64,000 bases of DNA from Dictyostelium discoideum (Eukaryota): the NCBI GenBank assembly GCA_000004695.1, contig CM000154.2, positions 2,464,001-2,528,000 of the forward strand. Direction: 5' to 3'. How positions within the stretch are numbered: the stretch's first letter is position 1; the number at the start of each line of letters is the position of its first letter. Below the pieces are notes generated by a model. The model saw nothing but the letters and a program-made list of their open reading frames with translations. It was not told where the DNA came from and ran no database searches. The position numbers were made by a program, and so were the translations under genes. Below are positions 18,401 through 30,060 of the stretch, piece after piece.

Positions 18401-21114
18401 AGCTAATTCGAGATGAATTAAAGATTGACGAAAATTTCTAAATTTATATTGTTCAATAGATAATTGTAATAAACATTCAGCTTTACCTTTTAATGAAGGA
18501 ACATTATTTTCCAATTGTTTTAAAACTCTATCATATTCATTGATAGCATCATCATAGAGACCTAAAGTTTTTGATAATGTTGCAATTTGAAAATTGATAT
18601 CAGTTGCAATACGATTTTCATTATCTAAAATCTCTTCTGCCTTTTTCAAAGATTTTAAAGCTGCAACATATTTGAATTGTCTACGATATGCTTCGGCCAA
18701 TGTACGCCAATAACTCTCATTCAAAGGCTCACCCTTAATTGCATTCAATAGGGATACTACGGAATTATGTATATCTTTATTATCCATTTGATAGATTGCA
18801 AGTCTATAGAATGCCCATGAACATTTTATAACATTAATTGGGAATCTTTTAATTTGTTTAGCTGATAAACAAAAATCGGTAATCTCTTTATACAATGACA
18901 TCACCAATGAAGTTTGACCACTCTCTGCATAGATTTCACCCAACTCAAATCCTGCTTCACCATTTAAAATATCCAATTGTAAACTTTTTTGATAACATTT
19001 CTTTGATCTCTCTTTTTGACCAATCATTTTATAAAGTGTACCTAATTTTGCAAACGTATCAGAATGATTTGAATTTAATTTTGCTGATTTTAAAAATTGT
19101 TGAATTATAAATGAACAATTATCATTATTATTATCATTATTATTATTATTTTCAATTTTATTTAATTCCATTAAAACTAAACCATAAACATAATAATTTA
19201 AATAATTATTAGCAGTTTCACCATTTAATTCAATTATTTCTTTTAAATTATCTTTACTTTTAATTAATGATTCTTTTGATTCTTTTAATAAAATATCAAT
19301 CCAAATTAAATAAATTTTTGATAATTCAATAATTTTCTTATTTTGATTATTATTTTGATTATTATTTTGATTATTATTAATAATTAATTGAAATAATTCT
19401 TTTGATTTTTTATAATCTTTAATTGAATAAAAATTTAATTTACTTTGTGAAAATGTTAAATAATTAAAATGAATTGGGAATTTATTAATTAATGATTCTA
19501 ATAATGATGATGCCAATTCAAAATTACAATTGAATGATAATGATTCAACTAAAATCAATTGAAGTTTAATGAAAATATTATTAAAATAATTGGCACCACC
19601 AACTGATCTTTGTTTTTGCTCATAGACAATCATTGACTTTTTAACTATATCTCTAACACGTTCATGATTTTCAACTTTTAAATACCATTTTGATAATGCT
19701 AAATAACCTAATAATGATTCGGTACTACCTGAATTTGAAAATCCTTTCTCTATTAATTGTTTACTTTGTTCACTATAATCTTTTAATTTAAAAACTTTAT
19801 AAAATCCTAACCCTATCCAACCTAATCCCCTATTTGCATATTTATTTGTTAAAATATTTGAAATTTCATTAATTTTTTCATATAATTCATTATTATTCTT
19901 TGATTCTTGATCATCATCTTCATCATCATCATCATCATTAAAATTAAATTCTTCTTCTAATAAATTTATTAAATTTTCTAATGAATAAATTGGTGTTGAT
20001 AACATTTCATTCATTCTTTCACAATTTTCATAAATTTCTTTATAAAGTTGTTTTTGTTTTTCTTCATCTTTATTCTCTTCATTACTATAAATTCTTCTTT
20101 TACCAATTAATATTTGAATGAAATGAGTATAAATTCTTATCATTTGTTCATTTGTTAAAATATTTAAATTTATTTTTGTTAATAATTCTTCATAAACTTT
20201 TAACTATATATATATATAGTTATAAAAAATAAATAAATTAATATTAATATTACTCTATATATATATATATTGGTTTTTAATTTTTTTGGAAAAAAAAAAA
20301 AAAAATCAAATACAAACATTAAAATTATTAATTAATGATTTATTTAATTCAAATTCAATTTTATCTCTTTCTTGTTTTTGTTCAGGTGTATGTTGAATTG
20401 CACCTAATACATGTAATTTTGAGTAATCTACAATTGGTATATTCTTCTCACGTAATTTTTCATCGATTTTAGTTTTTAAAGTGTTTAAATAGTATTGATA
20501 ATTTGCATCTTCAAATTTTTCTAATAATTTAATTCTATCTATTTTTGATGATTCACTATCATTTTCTCCATCATCACTACTTTTTTCATTTTCAAATAAA
20601 ATTGGTGAAATCAAATCAATTGTAGTTTTATAATCTTTTAAAAAGTAACTAATTTCAATTAATCTAAATACCAATTCTTTTTTTTTTTGTTTATCTGTTG
20701 TTAATGGAATTAATTCTTTTAATGTGTTTGATAATTTATCATTTTCATTTGTTTTATTATATAATTCTAGTAAACCCTAATTTATTTTATTTTATTTTAT
20801 TTTATTTTATTTTAAATTTTAATATTTATAAGTTTATTTTGTTTCAAAGAAAAAAGGAAAAAGAAAAAAAAAAAAATTTAACTAATTACCCTTAATGGAA
20901 CTGGTGAATTCTGTATTTTTAATGCAGCAATATATGATTTTTCAGCAGCAGCTAAATTATTTAAATTAAAATTTGAAACACCTAAAAAAAGATGAATCAT
21001 GAAATTTTGATCATCATATTGTACTATCTCATTACAATTTTCTAATGCTGTCTTATAATCTTTTTTATCAATAGCCTCCCTTGTCTCTTTTAATTTACTT
21101 TTAATATAGTCCAT
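15410..21114 (-). CDS. ski3: SKI3/TTC37-like superkiller TPR-repeat protein (~1825 aa, 3 exons)
   Basis: Exons (minus strand) ~20890-21114, 20318-20776, 15410-20203. Donors are GTAATT and GTTTGT; acceptors are tag|GGTTTA and tag|TTAAAAG. N-terminus MDYIKSKLKETREAIDKKDYKTALENCNEIVQYDDQNFMIHLFLGVSNF..AAAEKSYIAALKIQ parallels human TTC37 [71 protein letters not shown]. Numerous TPR-like repeats follow throughout the long exon. Confidence 0.75.
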
Positions 21115-21180
21115 TATGGATGTATAAATAAATTATTAATTTTTTTAAAAAAAAAAAAAAAAAAAAAAGGTGGTTTGTGG

Positions 21181-21218
<38 letters not shown>

Positions 21219-21426
21219 TGATCATTGAGAAAAAATTAAAAAAAAAAAAAAAAAATAAAAAAAAAAAAAAAATAAAAAATAAAAAACAAAAAATTAATAA
21301 TAATTATGAATCATGGCCCTCAGTAAATCTACAAGCTTAGAAAGAAAAATCCAAAGTGGATAAGTGGAATTGAAAAATTGGAAGCATTTCATTTTAATGT
21401 TTATAAAAGGAAATTATAATAATTAT

Positions 21427-21465
<39 letters not shown>

Positions 21466-21942
21466 ATAATAGTAAAAATAATAAAAATAATAAAAAATAA
21501 CAACAAAATAACAATAGTTGTAAAAAAACAAATAACAATACTATTAAAAACCTAATTATCACAATAATTAAAAAAAATAACAAATATTAATTTCAAACAC
21601 TTAATTTAAATTTCTTAGTTTTTTATTAAAAAAAAAAAAAAAAAAATTAAAAAGGTAATACATTTAAGGAAAGAAAGATTAATTGTAAAAAACTCATATT
21701 TTTTTTATTTATTTTTGAAAAAAAACAAAAAAAATAATAAAAGAGTTCGTTGAAAAAACATTTTTTTATTTTTATTATTATTTTTATTTAAAAAAAAAAA
21801 AAAAAAAAATCGATTGCATATTCTTTTAAAATTCTGAAAAAAATATCTTTTTTTTTTTTGGTTTTTAAAAGTTTTTTTTTTTTTTTTTTTTAATAACACA
21901 CAAAAAATTATTTTGTAATAATAAAATTATTTGTACAATAAA
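21115..21942. promoter_or_regulatory. Divergent intergenic promoter region between ski3 (minus) and the RNA ligase gene (plus)
   Basis: An 828-bp AT-rich spacer with A35/T35 homopolymers between two divergently oriented start codons (21114 and 21943). Confidence 0.4.
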
Positions 21943-23524
21943 ATGACTCAATTTATTGATAGAAATCAATCATATAAATTAAGAAACTCTACATTATTTC
22001 CACACGATATAACAATTGAAGATTGTCGTGAAGGTAAGCATTTTTTTTATTTTTTTTTATTTTTATTATTTGAAAACCTCAACATATTAATATTTTTCTT
22101 TTTTTTTTTTCTTTTATAGCCATAAAAGATGCAGCTGGATTCAGAGAAACAACAAAAAATGGATTAATTTGTTTTAATTATGATTTTTGTTTTAAAGATT
22201 CATTCCCAAATCCAGATATTGAACCAGATGATAAAAAAGCATTCCTTTATAAAGTAAGAAGAGAATGTAGAGGTTTAATTTTCAATGAAGCAACAAGTGA
22301 AATTGTTTGTAGAAAATTACATAAATTCTTTAACATAAATGAACAACAAGAAACAAAAGAAGTAAGTTTTATTTTATTTATTTTATTTATTTAAATAATA
22401 ATATTAATTTATTTTTTTTTTTTTTATTTTTTATATTTTTTATAATTTTTTTTTAAAAAAAAAAGGAATTAATTAAATTAGATGAGAATTTCATTGTATT
22501 AGAAAAATTAGATGGTTCATTAATTGCACCAATTTTAATTAATGGTAAAGCAGCATGGGGATCAAAGAGTGGTATTACAGATTTAACAATTAAAGTTGAA
22601 AAACATATTCAATTAAAATTAAAAGATAATAATATTAGATATGATGATTTCGCATTAGAATGGATGTTAAAAGGTTATACACCATTATTTGAATGGTGTT
22701 CAGAATCAAATCAAATCGTATTATATTATGCAATTGATAATTTAAATTTAATAGCCATGAGAAATATGAAAACTGGTGAATATTTAACTCATGATGAGAT
22801 GGTAAAGATTACAGCACCATTCAATGTACCAGTGGTAACATGTGTTGATTTAAAATCACATACACATTTCTCAAAGCTTTATAGTGAATTAAATGGTGCT
22901 GATAAGAGCATCACCACCACCTCTGAAGAATTTATAAATACAGGCGCATCAAAATTATTGAAAATTGTATTAGGCTTAGAGAATTGTGAAGGTTATATAT
23001 TAAAATTCGATTCAGGTAAGACCTATAAGATGAAGAGTAATTGGTATTTCGAGTACCATTCAATTGCACCAAATATTAAATATGTTTTAGAAAAGGATGT
23101 TTTCTATTTAATTTTAAATGATGGTTTAGGTGGTATCGATGATATTATTGCAAAGATCACTGCTTCAGGACCTGTACCACAAAGATATTACCAAATTCAA
23201 GAGTTTGGTAAAGAATTATTACAAAAACTTGAAGATTTATCTATTAGAGTCATTCAATTCATTAAAGAATCAAAATCACAAGGAAAATTAAGAAAACATA
23301 TCTCCTCTGATAATTCGGTTTCAAATGCTTTCAAAAACTTTGTTTTTAGATTTTATGATTCAGTTGAAGCAAATGATAAAGTTACAAAACATATTGGTGA
23401 TGTTTCAAAACATATAATGGAAAAATTAAAACTTCTTTGCACTAATTCTTCTAAATTAGAAGAATGTAGAATTATTCTTGGTGGTATTAAATTTACTGAA
23501 GATAAGCCAAAATTATCTGATTAA
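21943..23524 (+). CDS. T4 Rnl1-family RNA ligase (nucleotidyltransferase), ~463 aa, 3 exons
   Basis: Exons ~21943-22033, 22120-22361, 22466-23524 (GTAAGC and GTAAGT donors). Four motif matches to T4 Rnl1: ECRGLIFNEATSEIVCRKLHKFFNINE vs T4 [30 protein letters not shown]; motif I lysine box VLEKLDGSLIAPI vs T4 ILTKEDGSLVSTY; NQIVLYYAIDNLNLIAMRNMKTGEYLTHDEM vs T4 [56 protein letters not shown] vs T4 [25 protein letters not shown]. Confidence 0.8.
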
Positions 23525-23551
23525 TTAAAAAAAAAAATAAATAAAAATAAT

Positions 23552-23628
<77 letters not shown>

Positions 23629-23632
23629 TAAA
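23552..23632. repeat. (TAA)n microsatellite (~27 units) in 3' flank of RNA ligase gene
   Basis: aataataataat... an uninterrupted trinucleotide run. Confidence 0.9.
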
Positions 23633-23833
23633 ATGAAAAAATAAAAAAAAAAAAAAACAAAAACAAATAAAATGTTTTAAAAAAAAAACTTTTTTTTTTT
23701 TTTAAAAAATAATTAACAAAAAATTAAAATGTTAAATTATTTTTTTTTTAGATATAAAAATTTTCATTTGATATTTTTAGTGCAATTGGGCGGACTTGGT
23801 GATGAGTTGGGTGTTGGAAAATTTTTCTGATTC

Positions 23834-23872
<39 letters not shown>

Positions 23873-23903
23873 AAAATTTTAGTTATTATCAATAAATTGA
23901 AAA

Positions 23904-24857
23904 ATGAGTAACATCGATGAAAGTAAAAAAAAAGATAAAAATATTAATAATGAAGAAACTTCATTAAATCAAATAACATCATCACTTTCAATGATTTCTT
24001 TAACTCCATCAATACCTCCATCAACACCACCATCAACACCAAATAATAACAATAAAAATAAAACATTTAATAACAGTGGTAGTGCAATTAAAAATAATTT
24101 TAATAATAATGGATCAATTATAGGAGAAAGAGCAGTTCAATATTTTGGATATTTAGTATTATCACAAGGTCATATATGGAGAGCCACGACATCAAATGAT
24201 ATTGGTATTGATGGTCAAATTGAATTTGTTAATAATTTTTCAAGAAAAGGTAGTAAAGCTATAATTTGTGGAGTTCAATTAAAAGCAACGGTTGTAGATA
24301 AAAATGCTTCAATTAATATTGAATCTGTAAATTATTGGATTAAATATCCATTACCAGTTATAGTAGTTCAAATTTATTTTAAACAACCAATTAATTCATT
24401 ACCAACTTGTTTATTCTTAACAAAAGAACAAGTTCAAAGTTATATAAATTCAACAACTTTAAATACACCTAATAAAAATTCATCTTCATCATCTTCAACT
24501 TTTTCTTATTTTTCACCTGTTCAATCACCATCACCATCACCATCATCATCATCGAATTCCTTAATGACAATGGTTATTGAGTCAAGAGTATTTGATAAAA
24601 ACAAAGCAAAGGATTTCTCATGTGATGCAGTTCAAGAATATTGTATTGAATATATGAGAAATAATTATGTAAATTTTATTGATAATAGATTTCAAGATTA
24701 TTTAAAAATTCAAGAATATTCAAAAATGAAAGCTGATCAAATTTGGAAAGATTTAGTTCATAAATTTTTAAAACTAAAACCAACTTATAATTTAAAAGAA
24801 GTTATAGTTTTTAATTTAAATAATATTAATAACAATAATAACAATAATAATGATGAA

Positions 24858-24921
<64 letters not shown>

Positions 24922-25496
24922 GTTTTAATGATGATGATTATGAAAATGATGACAATGAAACTTTTTTAATAAATATTCAAAATTTATTCGAATTCCCATT
25001 TTCAATAATTCAAGATAATCATAGAGATTATTTAAAAGAACAATTAATTGAATTTGGATATGACCATAATGTATCACTAAGAAATATTTGTGATCAAATT
25101 TACCATTTATATAACAATAATAATAATAATAATAATAATAATGAATTTATTAATTTATCAAAATGGTTTAGTTATTTATATTGTATTTTAAATATTGATC
25201 CAATTAAATCAATTGAAAATGATATTTTAGAGATTAATTTAAATTCATCAATTAAAAAAGATATTATTTACATAGAGATTTTAATTTTAGAAATTTGTGA
25301 TTTCATATTACCAAATTATTATAAAGAAATTATTACAACTCAAACAACTGCAAAATTAATAATTATTAAAAATATTATAAATCTTTCAAAAACTAGTAGT
25401 AGAGGTGGTGGTGGTACTGATGGCGGTAGTGACGGTGGTGTTAATGAATTATTAAATAATTCCATAAATTTATTAAAAAAACAAATAAATAAATAA
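23904..25496 (+). CDS. DUF4365-like / PD-(D/E)xK restriction-endonuclease-fold protein with long poly-N linkers (530 aa)
   Basis: Single ORF. N-terminal domain ERAVQYFGYLVLSQGHIWRATTSNDIGIDGQIEFVNNFSRKGSKAIICGVQLKATVV...NYWIKYPLPVIVVQIYF matches the DUF4365 pattern (aE..fg.l....g......D.GID..iE......G......QvK......W...p.PvllV), i.e. a D...(I/V)D...E.(Q/V)K nuclease-like core. The remainder is low-complexity (N25, S/P-rich). The domain call is from pattern recall and has not been searched. Confidence 0.5.
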
Positions 25497-25573
25497 AATA
25501 CAAATAAATAAATAAAATACAAATAAATAGGTTTATAATTTTTTTATTTTTATTTTTATTTTTATTTTTTTGA

Positions 25574-27100
25574 TTAAATTCTATTATTATCATGTAATAA
25601 TCTTAATAATGAATCAGTTACTGAATTATCTCTTGATTCTTTAATTGAATTTGATATACCATAACCAAGTATTATAGGTTTACTATTATTATTATTATTA
25701 TTATGATTTTTATTATTGATTGAATTTGAATCATTATTCTCAACAGTTAAAACATGTAAATATAATGAACTATCAGTACCTCTATTAATTTCTTTAACTA
25801 AATGAATTTGACCAGGTCTTTTTGAATGTTGATTTAAAACGGTTTGTAATCTACCAATATGAGAGAACCCAACACAATCATGTAAAATTAATGTTGAAAA
25901 CCAAGCTGGTACATTATTTTTAGAGGTTTGATATACATCAGCTCCTAATTGTTTTTTATAATATTCCCAAATTGAACTTGGATTTTTATAAAGATGTAAA
26001 TCTTGATTTTCAATTGGTGCTTGATATGATTGATTTTTCATCATTAAATTTGATGATGATGTTGATGTTGATGTTGTTGATGGATCTGATTTATTATTTT
26101 CATTTTCTTTATATATATTTTGTTGTTGTTGTTGATTTTGATTTTGATTTTGATTTTGATTTTGATTTTGATTTTGATTTTGATTTTCTATAGTATTAAT
26201 TTTTATTTTTTTTTTTAATAAAAATTTTTTATAATTCGCAAATAAATGATCAAATTCATATTGTGATAATGAATCTAAATATTCAGTGAATAAAGGTAAA
26301 ATTTTGTCTTCAATAGCTGATTCACCTTGATCTAGATAAACTGAACCAATGAATGACATGAATGTGACGTAATATAATTGTTCATATTTTTGATTTGGTA
26401 ATTTATTTGATAACTTTTTGATGTATCCTTGAAGATTTAAATATTGAAAAGTATTGGCAATGACAACATGGGATATAAAGAATGAGTTTATAGGTATTAC
26501 ATAGTTATTGGTGACATTTGGGTATCGTTTAAATAGATATTTACAAACTACTAATGGAAATATCTTTGATGCTTCTGCGAAATATTTACCAGTGATTAAT
26601 GTTTTATTATCTTTTGAAAAGGTTACCGCTGTTGAAAATGAATTGGAAAGTAATTGATTATCGTTGAATTTCAATCCATTGAATGTATTCTCTATCTTTT
26701 TAATTAAAATATTTTTACTTATAACATTTGGTACAATTTCTTCGGAAAATTTATTCTTACAAAATTGACTATTACCAATATGTGTTGAATCTAATAAATT
26801 TTCATTTTCATCTTTAAAACTATATGATTCATTATTATTTTCATTATTATTATTATTATTATATTTATTATTATTATTTAAATTATTATTATTATTATCA
26901 TTATCATTATTATTTAAATTATTATTATCACTATCATTTATTTTAAATTTTATAAAATTTGGATTATTTTTGGAAAAATATAATTTATTTGAAATTGTAA
27001 AATTTAAATTTAATTTATTATAACTATTTAAATTTGAAATAATATTGGTTATAAATTTTTTATTGGTATTTACACATAATCTATTTGTTAAAGATATCAT
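25574..27100 (-). CDS. RNase III-like domain + C-terminal dsRBD protein (putative mitochondrial ribosomal protein L44/MRPL3-like), 508 aa
   Basis: Single ORF. The central region NKTLITGKYFAEASKIFPLVVCKYLFKRYPNVTNNYVIPINSFFISHVVIANTFQYLNLQGYIK resembles the degenerate RNase III fold of MRPL44. The C-terminus ...RPGQIHLVKEINRGTDSSLYLHVLTVEN...PIILGYGISNSIKESRDNSVTDSLLRL has dsRBD character. It contains an (NQ)9 repeat encoded by (GATTTT)n on the plus strand at 26120-26190. Confidence 0.45.
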   Translation of the reverse strand: MISLTNRLCVNTNKKFITNIISNLNSYNKLNLNFTISNKLYFSKNNPNFIKFKINDSDNNNLNNNDNDNNNNNLNNNNKYNNNNNNENNNESYSFKDENENLLDSTHIGNSQFCKNKFSEEIVPNVISKNILIKKIENTFNGLKFNDNQLLSNSFSTAVTFSKDNKTLITGKYFAEASKIFPLVVCKYLFKRYPNVTNNYVIPINSFFISHVVIANTFQYLNLQGYIKKLSNKLPNQKYEQLYYVTFMSFIGSVYLDQGESAIEDKILPLFTEYLDSLSQYEFDHLFANYKKFLLKKKIKINTIENQNQNQNQNQNQNQNQNQQQQQNIYKENENNKSDPSTTSTSTSSSNLMMKNQSYQAPIENQDLHLYKNPSSIWEYYKKQLGADVYQTSKNNVPAWFSTLILHDCVGFSHIGRLQTVLNQHSKRPGQIHLVKEINRGTDSSLYLHVLTVENNDSNSINNKNHNNNNNNSKPIILGYGISNSIKESRDNSVTDSLLRLLHDNNRI

Positions 27101-27400
27101 GTTTTTTAATTATTTAATCCGTAACAAATTTGATCCATTCAAATTGTCGTTTTTTGAAAAAAAAAAATAAAAAAAATTAAAATAAAAATAAAAAAAAATA
27201 AAAATAATTTTTTTTTTTTTTTTTTTTTTTTTTCACTTTTTTTTTTTTTTTCACCCCAACCCAAAAAAAAGAACCCCTTTTTTTTTTTTTTAATTTTTTA
27301 ATTTTTTAATTTTTTTATTTTAAATTAAAGTTTATTATAATAATAATAATAAATAAAACTTTAGAAAGAATATTTAAAGTGTTATTATTCTTTAAATAAA

Positions 27401-27634
27401 ATGTCAAATAATAGTAATAAAAGTAAAGAAGTTTCAATATTTTTATATAGAAATTTAGTAAGACAATGTTCAAAGATTGATAAGAACCCACAATACAAAC
27501 AATACTTTGTTACACCAAAATCATTAAGACCAGGTTTACCAACATTCTTTTTACCAAGTGTATCTTTTTTACAAAAATTAAAAATTAAGTTTAGAGAAAG
27601 TTGCAATGAAAATTTAAAAACAAATGATATTGTT
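27401..27634 (+). CDS. Possible 5' exon (LYR-motif-like, ..IFLYRNLVRQ..) spliced to the AlgH-like gene, or a separate small gene
   Basis: ATG at 27401 and a canonical GTATGT donor at 27635. An in-frame acceptor (aataatag|AGA) at 27750/27751 joins it to the downstream ORF. The unspliced read-through gives only poly-I junk. Confidence 0.3.
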
Positions 27635-27717
27635 GTATGTATTATAATTATAATTATAATAATAAATAGAATGATTAATTATTAATGATTCATATATATA
27701 AACTAATAATAAATAAA

Positions 27718-27749
<32 letters not shown>

Positions 27750-27843
27750 GAGAATAAATTCATCAATCAGCGACGGTTTTGCTGTTTTAAAGAATATAAA
27801 TTTATCAAAATATGCAAACTATGAATCGAATCAAGAACAAATT

Positions 27844-28824
27844 ATGTCGCAGATGAAAAATTTTTATAATAGGATAGGTGGTTTAAATAATGAGCATGAA
27901 ATTGATCCAACTATACCTCAAAAATCAAGACCACTAAATTCCCAAATAAATAATAATAATATAAATAATAATATAAATAATAATAATAATACCACAATAA
28001 ATACTAAAGAAATTAAAAATAAAGAAGAATCAAAAGTAGAACCAAAAATAACATCATCAACCTCACCAACCTCACCAACAACTCCAACAACAGAAACAGC
28101 AACTTCATCATCATCATCATCAACAACATCAGAAGATTCATTTAAAGGAAGTAAATTAACAAAAAGAGAACAAATAAAATTACAAAAACAACAATTATTA
28201 GAGAAACAAAAAGAAGTTAAAGATAGAAAATTTTGGCCAATCAAAAATAATATTGAAGAAATTGGTGAAGGGGAAGAGGAGGAAGAAGAAGGAGAACAAG
28301 AAAAAGGACAAGAAAATGGTGTAGTTAGATATAGTTCAATTAAACCTGGTACAATTTTAATCTCTCATCCATCATTAGGTGAACATTTGAATAAAAAGGT
28401 TGTATTGATCACTCATTCAATTGGTGGTCATCATTATGGTTTCTTTATTAATACTCCAATTCAAACTGGTGCAGCATTATCATACATTGATTTCGAAATG
28501 AAAACACACTACGACAGAGCAGCAGTAGAAGCCAATCGTTCTAAAAACTTTTCAAGACTCTTTATATACGCATTGAAAAGACCAATTGGTCCATTAAAAA
28601 CTTTAAATTGGAATTTAGGTGGTCTTCAATCAATTACTGATCATTCTGTTTTATCACGTGGTTTTGATGGTTTAAATTGTACTCAAATCGTTCATCCTTA
28701 TTCAAATTTATCTGGTTCTAAAAAAATTAGAGATGGTTTATATATTGGTGGCAAATTAAAAGAAGTTGGGTAAGTTATTATTATTATTATAATTATTAAA
28801 AAAAATAATCAAAACAAGAATTAA

Positions 28825-28875
<51 letters not shown>

Positions 28876-29112
28876 AAAAATAGAGATAAAATTAGAAATA
28901 AAGAAATTGATAAAAATAAATTATTAATGTTTGTAGGTTGTTCTACATGGAATCCAGGACAACTTGAAAAAGAAATTAAAGAAGGTGCTTGGTTTAGAGC
29001 AGATTGTAGTAACGAAACAATTCTTAAACAATTAAAACCAAAAAATTTTTGGGCTGAAGCATTGGAATCAATGGGTGGTGATTATAGCGATTTAGTTAAA
29101 ACTCATTTTTAA
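27844..29112 (+). CDS. AlgH/YqgE-family (DUF179, UPF0301) protein, ~350-390 aa, >=2 exons
   Basis: Main exon 27844 (or 27751)-28769 with donor GTAAGT at 28770 (phase 2). The terminal exon begins at an upstream acceptor (candidates 28884 or 28896 keep the frame) and ends at 29112. Family motifs: GTILISHPSLGEHLNKKVVLITHSIGGHHYGFFINTPIQ (AlgH: lia.P.l.d.nF.rsVvll.eH...GamGlviNrP) and FVGCSTWNPGQLEKEIKEGAWF (AlgH: flGyaGW.pGQLE.Ei..g.W). The N-terminal 150 aa are low-complexity (N/T/S/E-rich). Confidence 0.6.
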
Positions 29113-29170
29113 AATAATAAATTTAATCTTTTTTTTTTTTTTTAATAAATAATAATCCATGTTTAAAGGT

Positions 29171-29211
<41 letters not shown>

Positions 29212-29226
29212 AATAAATAAAAAAAA

Positions 29227-30060
29227 TTAATAAATAAAATCTTTATTTAAATCTATCTTTAAAATGAAAATAAATTGGTTTGGATGAATGTTTTTCAAAT
29301 TGTATTTTTGTGATTGTAATAGTTGATAAGAGGAGATTGGTGAGTTTAAAATTGTAACGACGTAAAGATATAAATACCAATTCACGTAATTCATTTTGTG
29401 TAAGTATACCATTTCTAAAATTATCATTTGAGTTTGATTTTGATTTTGAATCTGTTTTCTTTTTAAAGATATACATATGGTTTGATAAAAGATATTCTAA
29501 TGTGAAAATTTGTTGTTGGGAAACTGCAATTATTAAACAATTCTATATCACTATATTCTAAATTCTCTAATAGTTTATCACCACCACCAATCGTTATTAT
29601 ATATTTCAACATTTTTAAACTTTTATAATTAAAAACTTTAAAATTATCATTAAATTTATTAATTTTATTTTTGTTTTTTTTATATATTAATTTGATAAAT
29701 GATTTTAATGCTACTAAATTTGATGATTGAATAATTTTAATAAATAATTCATTAAGATTAAAGTTTTTTGAATAATATTCATTATTACCAAATAATTGAT
29801 TATAAAATAGTTCATCCTTTTTAATTAGTTCTAAGATCAAATTTGGGAATGTTTCTCTAATAATACCTGTAATTTTAATTTCAAAAAATAAATATTGATT
29901 ATTTTTGACTTTATCTTTTAAAATTTCAATACCATTTGTATATTTAGATAAAATTTCTGAAACATTATATAATCTATCATATGAATAAATATTTGAAAAT
30001 TCAAAATTTGAATATATAATTTTATTCAAAAATTTATTTCTATAAAATTTCCAAAGTTTA
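29227..30060 (-). pseudogene. Truncated, frameshifted paralogous fragment of the 958-aa gene at 36724-39600
   Basis: 29227-29476 is ~93% nt-identical to 36721-36975 (the 3' coding end plus 3'UTR; protein MYIFKKKTDSKSKSNSNDNFRNGILTQNELRELVFISL...KPIYFHFKDRFK). The adjacent ORF 29463-30029 resembles an internal segment (GIEILKDKVKNNQYLFF vs ISILKDKVKSNKYLSFF) but is in another frame. Confidence 0.6.

What the first reader, a model, noticed from the sequence alone, without database searches (positions are those of the whole stretch)
21943..25496. RNA ligase immediately followed by a DUF4365 / PD-(D/E)xK nuclease-like gene: a possible horizontally acquired RNA damage/repair pair
The next gene downstream on the same strand (380 bp spacer) begins with a ~120-aa domain whose spacing of D-IGIDGQIE-F...CGVQLK...W.KYPLPVIVV fits the bacterial DUF4365 restriction-endonuclease-like fold. 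That fold is common in prokaryotic defence islands. A nuclease-like protein adjacent to a phage-type RNA ligase is reminiscent of toxin (anticodon nuclease) / repair (Rnl1) logic. Two more prokaryote-flavoured genes (AlgH/DUF179 at 27844, RNase III-like at 25574) lie within 6 kb. Eukaryotic synteny does not imply an operon, so a functional link is only a hypothesis.
Basis: inference. Interest (0 to 1): 0.6.

Follow-up and report, generated by a model that had tools for sequence, protein, structure and literature searches.

The report
Amoeba RNA ligase beside captured bacterial-type nuclease

Summary
Window 21943-23524 is a three-exon gene for a 463-aa Rnl1-type RNA ligase (DDB_G0289211; Pfam PF09511 E=1e-41; model matches T4 Rnl1 over its whole length; all essential ligase residues present). 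After a 379-bp spacer, ORF 23904-25496 encodes a 530-aa protein. Residues ~69-183 form a DUF4365/DREN PD-(D/E)xK nuclease domain (PF14280 E=1e-10, above threshold). The DxGxD...QxK catalytic motif is intact, the fold matches SPARDA DREN structures, and dN/dS is 0.14-0.21.

The "acquired pair" reading is not supported. Ligase orthologues occur in all dictyostelid groups sampled and in Physarum, Balamuthia and Acanthamoeba, and they follow the species tree. The DUF4365 gene was found only in D. discoideum, D. citrinum and D. firmibasis. It is absent beside the ligase in D. purpureum and four more distant dictyostelids. Its only other detectable relatives are weak matches; all that carry names or recur in genomes are bacterial, and the similarity is confined to the nuclease domain. 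Eighty bacterial DUF4365 loci held no Rnl1, and eighty viral Rnl1 loci held no DUF4365.

Best reading: an old amoebozoan RNA-repair ligase next to a lineage-restricted, probably bacterium-derived, probably active nuclease. A functional link remains untested.

The parts
21943..22033 (+). Rnl1-type RNA ligase gene (DDB_G0289211), exon 1
   Evidence: ATG at 21943 and GT donor at 22034. The spliced product is found exactly in a D. discoideum assembly, and a 463-aa member of its 90% cluster is annotated DDB_G0289211.
22120..22361 (+). Ligase exon 2. Encodes R81 and K99/F101 (the counterparts of T4 Rnl1 R54 and K75/F77).
   Evidence: AG acceptor at 22118-22119 and GT donor at 22362. Aligned to T4 Rnl1. 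These residues are invariant in 37 homologues.
22466..23524 (+). Ligase exon 3. Encodes motif I K125-L-D-G-S (the AMP-accepting lysine), K145, motif III E187, motif IV E286-G287, motif V K299/K301 and the helical C-terminal domain, plus the stop codon.
   Evidence: PF09511 E=1.3e-41. TIGR02308 E=7e-28 covering model positions 51-364 of 373. AF2 model pLDDT 88.5. Foldseek best hit T4 Rnl1 2c5u, E=1.9e-17, TM 0.69 over 428 columns.
23525..23903 (.). 379-bp AT-rich spacer between the two genes. It presumably holds the ligase 3' end and the promoter of the nuclease gene.
   Evidence: Sequence. No Rfam match. Poorly conserved among D. discoideum, D. citrinum and D. firmibasis.
23904..25496 (+). Single-exon ORF for a 530-aa DUF4365-domain protein
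   Evidence: ORF. The same 530-aa gene is called in a D. discoideum chromosome assembly. Intact orthologues are present in another D. discoideum isolate, D. citrinum and D. firmibasis.
24108..24452 (+). DUF4365/DREN PD-(D/E)xK nuclease domain (residues 69-183). The catalytic motif D99-x-G-x-D103...E107...Q125-x-K127 lies at 24198-24284.
   Evidence: PF14280 E=9.9e-11. A profile including this domain hits the DREN-APAZ structures 9jsb at E=2e-17 and 9qbq at E=8e-19. [quoted passage not shown] Foldseek top hits are SPARDA DREN, E=6e-7, rmsd 2.1-3.0 A over 113 columns. dN/dS 0.14-0.21.
24567..25493 (+). Lineage-specific C-terminal half (residues 222-530). It is predicted helical and is interrupted by a poly-Asn tract (residues ~304-340, nt 24813-24923). 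No detectable homologues outside the D. discoideum group.
   Evidence: AF2 predicts helices at low confidence. No Pfam or NCBIfam hit. hhalign against the bacterial family matches only residues 70-155. dN/dS 0.25-1.06.

Best explanation
These are two independent genes that happen to be neighbours. Gene 1 is an ancient amoebozoan ATP-dependent RNA ligase of the T4 Rnl1 family. By family knowledge, K125 is adenylylated, AMP is transferred to a 5'-phosphate RNA end, and the 3'-OH attacks to seal the break. The substrate is most likely breaks in RNA loops such as tRNA anticodon loops. Gene 2 is a young gene restricted to the D. discoideum/citrinum/firmibasis lineage. Its N-terminal ~115 residues are a DUF4365/DREN PD-(D/E)xK nuclease domain, most probably captured from a bacterium. 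The domain is now fully adapted to host composition and fused to an amoeba-specific low-complexity linker and a helical C-terminal region. By analogy with DREN, it should be a Mg2+/Mn2+-dependent, sequence-nonspecific endonuclease acting on DNA and possibly RNA, with metal bound by D103 and Q125 and with K127 contributing to catalysis. Its activity probably requires oligomerisation, here presumably through the C-terminal half. The nuclease gene sits at a synteny breakpoint just downstream of the ligase, so the adjacency is recent and probably fortuitous. Shown here: the domain identities, intact motifs, purifying selection, phylogenetic distribution and lack of linkage elsewhere. Inferred: the enzymatic activities, the need for oligomerisation, the bacterial donor and the biological role.
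For: Ligase. PF09511 E=1.3e-41. T4 Rnl1 by sequence E=4e-18 and by fold E=1.9e-17, TM 0.69. R81, K99, F101, K125, D127, G128, E187, E286, G287, K299 and K301 are invariant in 37 homologues. Orthologues at 93/88/64/50/46/42% identity in D. citrinum, D. firmibasis, D. purpureum, P. violaceum, A. subglobosum and T. lacteum, plus Physarum, Balamuthia and Acanthamoeba homologues and an old paralogue, DDB_G0286041. In an NJ tree all named amoebozoan sequences form one clade, and the orthologue subtree groups D. discoideum, D. citrinum and D. firmibasis, then D. purpureum, apart from the other dictyostelid genera, as expected. Nuclease gene. PF14280 E=1e-10. The DxGxD...QxK motif is intact; these positions are the experimentally essential residues D41/Q60/K62 of NbaSPARDA (PMC12205087), Q62/K64 of TmuRE (PMC10810196) and D42/D46/Q66/K68 of EAT16 (PMC11297309), mapped through. 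Fold match to DREN. dN/dS 0.14-0.21 on the domain. An exhaustive phmmer search of 1.84 billion representatives found one strong cluster (D. discoideum) and 14 weak hits at E 3e-6 to 8e-4. The named ones are Acetobacter, Morganella and Proteus, and the best-matching family recurs across bacterial phyla. Homology to these is limited to residues 70-155. Synteny. The pair is present in D. discoideum isolates, D. citrinum and D. firmibasis. It is absent at the ligase locus of D. purpureum and four other dictyostelids by tblastn and by HMM on six-frame ORFs. Downstream genes differ between species. No linkage: 0 Rnl1 in 80 bacterial DUF4365 loci (1.34 Mb) and 0 DUF4365 in 80 viral Rnl1 loci (1.29 Mb), with positive controls working.
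Against: If D. discoideum has one DUF4365 gene and two or three Rnl1 paralogues among roughly 12,500 genes (the gene number is from memory), the chance that they are immediate neighbours is about 5e-4. This is a post-hoc figure, because a reader would flag many kinds of 'interesting' adjacency, but it is not negligible. DREN cleaves ssRNA as well as DNA (10.1101/2023.06.08.544223). PD-(D/E)xK cleavage leaves 5'-P/3'-OH ends, which are exactly what an Rnl1 ligase can reseal without end-healing, so a functional link is chemically possible. Co-expression could not be examined. Absence from D. purpureum rests on a 21-kb locus and on predicted proteomes, not on a whole-genome tblastn. The C-terminal half was not adequately searched for homologues. 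The NJ tree has no bootstrap support.
Confidence: 0.72

Rival explanations
1. A functional RNA damage/repair module. The DUF4365 protein would cleave cellular or invader RNA when triggered, and the adjacent Rnl1 ligase would reseal the 3'-OH/5'-P breaks. This would be analogous to PrrC versus T4 Rnl1/Pnkp, with the adjacency retained because of co-regulation.
For: The genes are tandem on the same strand with a 379-bp spacer, and this arrangement is conserved in the three species that have the nuclease gene. The a priori chance of this particular adjacency is low (inference). DREN domains show collateral ssRNA cleavage in vitro (10.1101/2023.06.08.544223). PD-(D/E)xK products are directly ligatable (family knowledge). 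Both enzymes have intact active sites.
Against: The genes have very different ages, so they were not acquired as a pair. The ligase works without this partner in all other Amoebozoa sampled. There is no co-occurrence in 160 prokaryotic and viral loci. No Pnkp or other repair partner appears among the called neighbours. Conservation of synteny over such short distances (dS 0.2-0.4) is expected without any selection. Characterised DUF4365 effectors act mainly on DNA (PMC10810196, PMC12205087).
Confidence: 0.08
2. The DUF4365 gene is not a horizontal acquisition. It would be an old amoebozoan or eukaryotic gene that diverged rapidly and was lost, or went unannotated, in D. purpureum and other dictyostelids.
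For: Base composition (GC ~0.19-0.26), poly-Asn tracts and the host-like C-terminal half show no sign of recent foreign origin. The closest bacterial hits are only 26-47% identical over 60-160 aligned residues, so no donor can be named. The absence calls rely on predicted proteomes and single loci.
Against: No other eukaryotic protein appears among 1.84 billion representatives at E<=1e-3, even though D. purpureum, Heterostelium, Acytostelium, Tieghemostelium and EukProt proteins are present in the protein collections searched. The hits that carry names, or whose family recurs in sequenced genomes, are bacterial, and that family spans many bacterial phyla. The gene lies at a synteny breakpoint where each species carries different genes.
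Confidence: 0.12
3. The DUF4365 domain is retained as a non-catalytic nucleic-acid-binding or scaffolding module and is not an active nuclease.
For: An isolated DREN domain is monomeric and inactive (PMC12205087; 10.1101/2025.04.08.647717), and the partners that activate it in bacteria (APAZ and pAgo) are missing here. The position after R93, which is E in most of the bacterial relatives aligned here (the 'WRE' motif), is Ala in the amoeba.
Against: All invariant catalytic positions (D99, D103, E107, Q125, K127) are kept in four orthologues, with dN/dS ~0.15-0.2. The R-E position is not invariant in bacteria, where P, L and Y also occur.
Confidence: 0.15

Closest known systems
DREN (DUF4365) nuclease domain of SPARDA short-Argonaute defence systems (NbaSPARDA, XauSPARDA, TmuRE-Ago; PDB 9jsb, 9jt2, 9qcc, 9qbq)
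   Same: Same Pfam family and same PD-(D/E)xK fold. The catalytic constellation is the same: D103/Q125/K127 correspond to Nba D41/Q60/K62. The domain size and its N-terminal position in the protein are similar.
   Different: There is no APAZ domain and no adjacent short pAgo. The C-terminal half is an unrelated, amoeba-specific helical and poly-Asn region. The host is a eukaryote. The first motif acid is Asp (DxGxD), as in non-SPARDA DUF4365 proteins, whereas SPARDA has Glu.
Stand-alone bacterial DUF4365 proteins of ~300-340 aa (e.g. WP_086650083 Acetobacter cibinongensis; Morganella/Proteus WP_369443820) and the eCIS toxin EAT16 of Photorhabdus
   Same: These are the best sequence matches to the amoeba domain (E 3e-6 to 8e-4; hhalign E=4e-16). 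They share the DxGxD...QxK motif and the YW..PxPV segment (PMC11297309).
   Different: Their C-terminal domains are not shared with the amoeba protein. Identity is only 26-47% over 60-160 aligned residues, so no specific donor lineage can be named.
Bacteriophage T4 RNA ligase 1 (Rnl1; PDB 2c5u, 5tt6, 9do4)
   Same: The nucleotidyltransferase domain carries all essential residues, and the Rnl1-type helical C-terminal domain is present. The model superposes over 428 columns at TM 0.69.
   Different: About 21% identity. It scores below the TIGR02308 equivalog cut-off (97.8 against 242 bits). It has ~80 extra N-terminal residues and a longer C-terminus. It is a vertically inherited cellular gene of Amoebozoa with paralogues, not a phage counter-defence gene.
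PrrC anticodon nuclease versus T4 Rnl1/Pnkp (RNA damage and repair logic)
   Same: A nuclease-like gene and an Rnl1-type ligase occur in one genome neighbourhood.
   Different: PrrC is a host-encoded anticodon nuclease that, by established knowledge, leaves 2',3'-cyclic-P/5'-OH ends needing Pnkp, while the ligase belongs to the phage. Here the nuclease belongs to the PD-(D/E)xK class, no Pnkp is nearby, both genes are in one eukaryotic genome, and the association is not conserved.

Membership tests
DUF4365 / DREN (Pfam PF14280) | Profile score above Pfam's gathering threshold | tested here: met
   42.3 bits against 24.3, E=9.9e-11, residues 77-156. The orthologue P0001 carries a precomputed PF14280 assignment.
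DUF4365 / DREN (Pfam PF14280) | Conserved DxGxD...QxK catalytic motif | tested here: met
   D99-I-G-I-D103, E107 and Q125-L-K127 are invariant in alignments with bacterial members and in four amoeba orthologues. The motif definition and mutagenesis come from PMC11297309, PMC12205087 and PMC10810196.
DUF4365 / DREN (Pfam PF14280) | [quoted passage not shown] | tested here: met
   The AF2 domain model has pLDDT ~70-78. The top 15 Foldseek PDB hits are all SPARDA DREN chains (13 of them at E<=1e-3; best E=6e-7, rmsd 2.1-3.0 A), followed by MspJI, Hjc and I-Ssp6803I. Model confidence is moderate only.
DUF4365 / DREN (Pfam PF14280) | Metal-dependent nuclease activity that depends on oligomerisation | not testable with these tools
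   Requires recombinant protein assays.
SPARDA system (DREN-APAZ + short pAgo) | APAZ domain C-terminal to DREN | tested here: not met
   The PADLOC model match covers only positions 8-98 of 429. The PDB profile alignment covers only the DREN part of the chains. The C-terminal half is predicted all-helical and matches nothing.
SPARDA system (DREN-APAZ + short pAgo) | Co-encoded short Argonaute (MID-PIWI) | tested here: not met
   The neighbours are the Rnl1 ligase, an RNase III-like gene, DUF179, SKI3 and DNase II. No PIWI-type family is listed for any called neighbour.
Rnl1 family of ATP-dependent RNA ligases | Nucleotidyltransferase domain with motif I KxDG lysine and motifs III, IV and V | tested here: met
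   PF09511 at 143 bits against a cut-off of 28. K125-L-D-G, E187, E286-G287 and K299/K301 align with T4 K99, E159, E227-G228 and K240/K242 and are invariant in 37 homologues. The T4 residue numbers are from memory of Shuman-lab mutagenesis.
Rnl1 family of ATP-dependent RNA ligases | Rnl1-specific helical C-terminal domain | tested here: met
   The TIGR02308 alignment spans model positions 51-364 of 373. Foldseek aligns 428 columns to 2c5u with target-normalised TM 0.69, well ahead of Trl1, Rnl3 and Rnl2/Rnl5 ligases.
Rnl1 family of ATP-dependent RNA ligases | Equivalog of phage T4 RnlA (NCBIfam TIGR02308 trusted cut-off) | tested here: not met
   97.8 bits against a cut-off of 242.25. It is a family member but not a T4 RnlA equivalog.
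Toxin nuclease / repair ligase module (PrrC-Rnl1-like logic) | Conserved genomic or evolutionary association of the nuclease with the ligase | tested here: not met
   The ligase occurs without DUF4365 in five other dictyostelid loci. There is no Rnl1 in 80 bacterial DUF4365 loci and no DUF4365 in 80 viral Rnl1 loci.
Toxin nuclease / repair ligase module (PrrC-Rnl1-like logic) | The nuclease targets RNA (tRNA anticodon loop) and the ligase reverses the damage | not testable with these tools
   Needs biochemistry and genetics. Characterised DUF4365 domains degrade mainly DNA, with collateral RNA cleavage (papers cited above).
Toxin nuclease / repair ligase module (PrrC-Rnl1-like logic) | Co-regulation of the two genes | not tested
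   No expression data were reachable. A full-text search for DDB_G0289211 and DDB_G0286041 found no paper.

The most novel reading that the evidence does not exclude
A social-amoeba lineage has domesticated the effector nuclease domain of a bacterial abortive-infection system (DREN/DUF4365). It has rewired the domain to a eukaryote-specific helical and poly-Asn regulatory half and uses it as a triggered, oligomerisation-gated nuclease in its own defence or prey-processing. In the most novel version, the adjacent Rnl1 ligase acts as the built-in repair arm that reseals its 3'-OH/5'-P RNA breaks. That would be a eukaryotic nuclease/ligase damage-repair pair assembled de novo from an old host gene and a new bacterial one.
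Probability: 0.07. Interest if true: 0.8.

Novelty: new member of a known kind. Interest (0 to 1): 0.35.

Why it matters
If the nuclease is active, it would be a eukaryotic, selection-maintained copy of the DREN domain, which so far has been characterised only as a bacterial immune or toxin effector. None of the 21 full-text papers that mention DUF4365 appears, from its title or abstract, to concern a eukaryotic member. It would add to the list of bacterial defence modules reused by eukaryotes and would give a genetically tractable host in which to ask how such a nuclease is controlled without Argonaute/APAZ. The ligase is one more example of the known but functionally unexplained richness of Rnl1-type RNA repair enzymes in free-living protists (PMC4408790). 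The adjacency itself should not be treated as evidence of a system.

Tried and rejected
1. The search for homologous proteins with the full 530-aa protein was swamped by poly-Asn words and returned only one hit, P0001. With the N-domain alone it returned nothing, not even P0001, which is an index limitation. The exhaustive representative search replaced these.
2. The search for related loci with the mixed amoeba/bacterial alignment A2 failed for lack of a conserved stretch. It was redone with a bacterial subfamily.
3. phmmer of the full protein against the PDB gave only low-complexity hits. A profile search was needed.
5. The afdb50 fold library was unavailable. The viral BFVD search gave no hit at E<=1e-3, so there is no sign of a viral vector.
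6. Rfam search of 21000-29500 found nothing.
7. The 38-bp GC-rich patch at 23781-23818 in the spacer was considered as a regulatory element or small RNA. It is not conserved in D. citrinum or D. firmibasis, so it was dropped.
8. I tested whether the gene after the ligase in D. purpureum (a 1131-aa MTPAP-like nucleotidyltransferase) or the extra D. firmibasis gene (836 aa, B-box/FNIP-like repeats) are related to each other or to anything in the window. They are not.
9. The idea that the whole bacterial DUF4365 protein was transferred is rejected, because only residues 70-155 are homologous.
10. A literature search for the gene identifiers found no paper.
Full report
ORIGIN OF THE WINDOW. The sequence is extremely AT-rich (GC 0.13-0.30) and has poly-Asn/Gln coding tracts. 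The spliced product of the first gene is found exactly in a D. discoideum chromosome assembly (CM142511.1, 5.29 Mb). A 463-aa member of its 90% cluster is annotated DDB_G0289211 / UniProt Q54HU9.

CHECK OF THE OBSERVATION: THE LIGASE. The ligase gene has three exons, 21943-22033, 22120-22361 and 22466-23524, with canonical GT-AG introns. Its 463-aa product scores PF09511 (RNA_lig_T4_1) at E=1.3e-41. It matches T4 Rnl1 chains 2c5u, 5tt6 and 9do4 at E~4e-18. It aligns to NCBIfam TIGR02308 over model positions 51-364 of 373, but at 97.8 bits, below the equivalog cut-off of 242.

An AlphaFold2 model built from 37 homologues has mean pLDDT 88.5. Its best PDB match is T4 Rnl1 over 428 columns (E=1.9e-17, target-normalised TM 0.69), ahead of fungal Trl1 ligase domains and Rnl3, Rnl5 and Rnl2 enzymes. 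The residues aligned with the essential T4 residues are R81, K99/F101, K125 (motif I, EKLDGS), K145, E187, E286-G287 and K299/K301. They are invariant or nearly so across the 37 homologues. The gene therefore encodes a complete and very probably active Rnl1-family RNA ligase.

CHECK OF THE OBSERVATION: THE DUF4365 GENE. After a 379-bp spacer (23525-23903), ORF 23904-25496 encodes 530 aa. PF14280 (DUF4365) scores 42.3 bits, E=9.9e-11, against a cut-off of 24.3, over residues 77-156. PADLOC's model of the nuclease-APAZ partner of short Argonautes matches at E=9e-11, but only at its N-terminal nuclease end.

Aligned with 12 bacterial-type DUF4365 proteins, the amoeba protein keeps every invariant column: D99, G101, D103, E107, Q125, K127, Y144, W145, P151. 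A profile built from that alignment finds the solved SPARDA DREN-APAZ proteins at E=2e-17 (9jsb) and E=8e-19 (9qbq). In that alignment D103, Q125 and K127 fall on NbaSPARDA D41, Q60 and K62. D41 and Q60 coordinate Mg2+, and mutating any of the three abolishes or impairs nuclease activity (PMC12205087; 10.1101/2023.06.08.544223). The equivalent Q62/K64 of TmuRE (PMC10810196) and D42/D46/Q66/K68 of the eCIS toxin EAT16 (PMC11297309) are also required.

[quoted passage not shown] The rest is low-confidence helix and disorder. Foldseek against the PDB returns SPARDA DREN chains as the top 15 hits, 13 of them at E<=1e-3 (best E=6e-7, rmsd 2.1-3.0 A over 113 columns). MspJI, Hjc, EcoRV and I-Ssp6803I follow.

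HISTORY OF THE LIGASE. The ligase has orthologues in D. citrinum (93%), D. firmibasis (88%), D. purpureum (64%), Polysphondylium violaceum (50%), Acytostelium subglobosum (46%), Tieghemostelium lacteum (42%) and Heterostelium album. It has homologues in Physarum, Balamuthia and Acanthamoeba, and an old paralogue, DDB_G0286041.

In a neighbour-joining tree of 119 homologues, all named amoebozoan sequences fall in one clade of 22 tips. The orthologue subtree groups D. discoideum, D. citrinum and D. firmibasis, then D. purpureum, apart from the other dictyostelid genera. The paralogue split predates the Dictyostelia (no bootstrap). Any transfer of this gene from the phage or bacterial world therefore predates the amoebozoan radiation. 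Multiple Rnl1-type ligases in free-living protists are already on record, for example seven in Naegleria (PMC4408790).

HISTORY OF THE DUF4365 GENE. Its history is completely different. An exhaustive phmmer search of 1.84 billion cluster representatives with residues 60-300 found one strong cluster, the D. discoideum protein P0001, and only 14 weak hits at E 2.6e-6 to 8e-4. Those with names are Acetobacter, Morganella and Proteus proteins. The best-matching family recurs in Proteobacteria, Bacteroidota, Actinobacteria, Cyanobacteria, Gemmatimonadota and other phyla. Profile-profile comparison shows that the homology is limited to residues 70-155 (E=3.9e-16), and the C-terminal halves are unrelated.

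Intact orthologues lie directly downstream of the ligase in a second D. discoideum isolate, in D. citrinum and in D. firmibasis. At the ligase locus of D. purpureum, P. violaceum, T. lacteum, A. subglobosum and H. album there is no DUF4365 sequence, either by tblastn or by an HMM search of six-frame ORFs.

Downstream of the ligase, gene content differs from species to species. D. purpureum has an MTPAP-like nucleotidyltransferase ORF there, and D. firmibasis has an extra B-box/FNIP-type gene. The upstream neighbour is conserved and is the SKI3/TTC37 orthologue. The nuclease gene therefore sits at a synteny breakpoint and appeared after the split from D. purpureum. It is nevertheless a real gene. 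Among D. discoideum, D. citrinum and D. firmibasis the nuclease domain has dN/dS 0.14-0.21 at dS 0.22-0.38. The middle and C-terminal parts are less constrained, at 0.25-1.06.

LINKAGE ELSEWHERE. Eighty bacterial DUF4365 loci (±10 kb, 1.34 Mb) contain no ORF matching an Rnl1 HMM. Eighty viral contigs carrying Rnl1 homologues (1.29 Mb) contain no ORF matching the DUF4365 HMM. Both HMMs recovered their own family in the control searches. BFVD fold search gave no significant viral match to the nuclease model.

INTERPRETATION. The most economical account is two independent genes. The first is an ancient amoebozoan RNA-repair ligase. The second is a lineage-restricted gene whose nuclease domain was probably captured from a bacterium, has since taken on host-like composition, and was fused to an amoeba-specific C-terminal half.

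By analogy with DREN, the protein should be a metal-dependent, non-specific endonuclease whose activity needs oligomerisation. Isolated DREN domains are monomeric and inactive (PMC12205087; 10.1101/2025.04.08.647717). The helical and poly-Asn C-terminal region is the obvious candidate for that control. These last steps are inference.

DREN cuts ssRNA in vitro, and PD-(D/E)xK products are directly ligatable. The specific adjacency also has a low a priori chance, roughly 5e-4, although that figure is post hoc. Against it, the unequal ages of the genes, the absence of linkage elsewhere and the absence of any repair partner such as Pnkp leave it at about 0.07-0.08.

LIMITS. No expression data could be consulted. 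Absence outside the D. discoideum cluster rests on predicted proteomes and 21-kb loci. The afdb50 library was unavailable.

VERDICT. The result is a new eukaryotic member of the DUF4365/DREN family with a new architecture, lying next to a known type of protist RNA ligase. Interest is moderate to low, at 0.35.

Noticed in passing
window 15410-~21114 (- strand, multi-exon): The gene transcribed divergently from the ligase is the SKI3/TTC37 (superkiller complex) orthologue (PDB 9g8o_B and 7qdr_B, E~7e-40). It is the evolutionarily older neighbour of the ligase and is also upstream of it in D. firmibasis, D. citrinum and D. purpureum.
   Followed up: partly
window 25574-27100 (- strand): A 508-aa ORF with only weak RNase III similarity (Pfam E=0.002, below threshold; T. 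maritima RNase III 1o0w E=1.6e-4). It is conserved in position in D. citrinum and D. firmibasis. Its 'prokaryotic flavour' is not established, and it could be an ordinary organellar RNase III-like protein.
   Followed up: partly
window ~27389-29084 (+ strand, multi-exon) and ~30580 onward: A DUF179/AlgH-family gene. PF02622 is significant only in the full-length gene models of other assemblies. A DNase II gene (PF03265) starts about 8.6 kb downstream of the ligase start.
   Followed up: no
L003 12042-15437 (D. purpureum) and L002 13880-16390 (D. firmibasis): The slot downstream of the ligase is evolutionarily labile. D. purpureum has a 1131-aa ORF there, and the only gene called within that span (90 aa) carries a weak MTPAP-like nucleotidyltransferase hit. 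D. firmibasis has an extra 836-aa B-box/FNIP-repeat gene after the DUF4365 gene. Neither has a counterpart in the window.
   Followed up: yes
proteins P0073 and P0099: Some uncultured prokaryotic or viral Rnl1 homologues are 701-aa fusions with PF08843 (as I recall, an AbiEii-type nucleotidyltransferase toxin domain). That is a toxin-domain/RNA-ligase association that does exist elsewhere and might merit its own look.
   Followed up: no
protein P0010 (EukProt): One amoebozoan-like Rnl1 homologue (514 aa) carries Ras/Roc GTPase Pfam hits (PF08477, PF00071) in addition to the ligase domain. It could be a real fusion or a merged gene model.
   Followed up: no
window 23904-25496 versus L001 10001-11536: Two assemblies both labelled D. 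discoideum differ by dS ~0.05-0.12 and by poly-Asn tract length in this gene (86% overall protein identity). This indicates substantial divergence among isolates under that species name. The poly-Asn tract expands to more than 100 residues in D. firmibasis and D. citrinum.
   Followed up: partly
window 23781-23818: A 38-bp GC-rich island (GTGCAATTGGGCGGACTTGGTGATGAGTTGGGTGTTGG) sits in the otherwise ~90% AT spacer upstream of the DUF4365 gene. It is only partly present in another D. discoideum isolate and is absent in D. citrinum and D. firmibasis. There is no Rfam match.
   Followed up: yes
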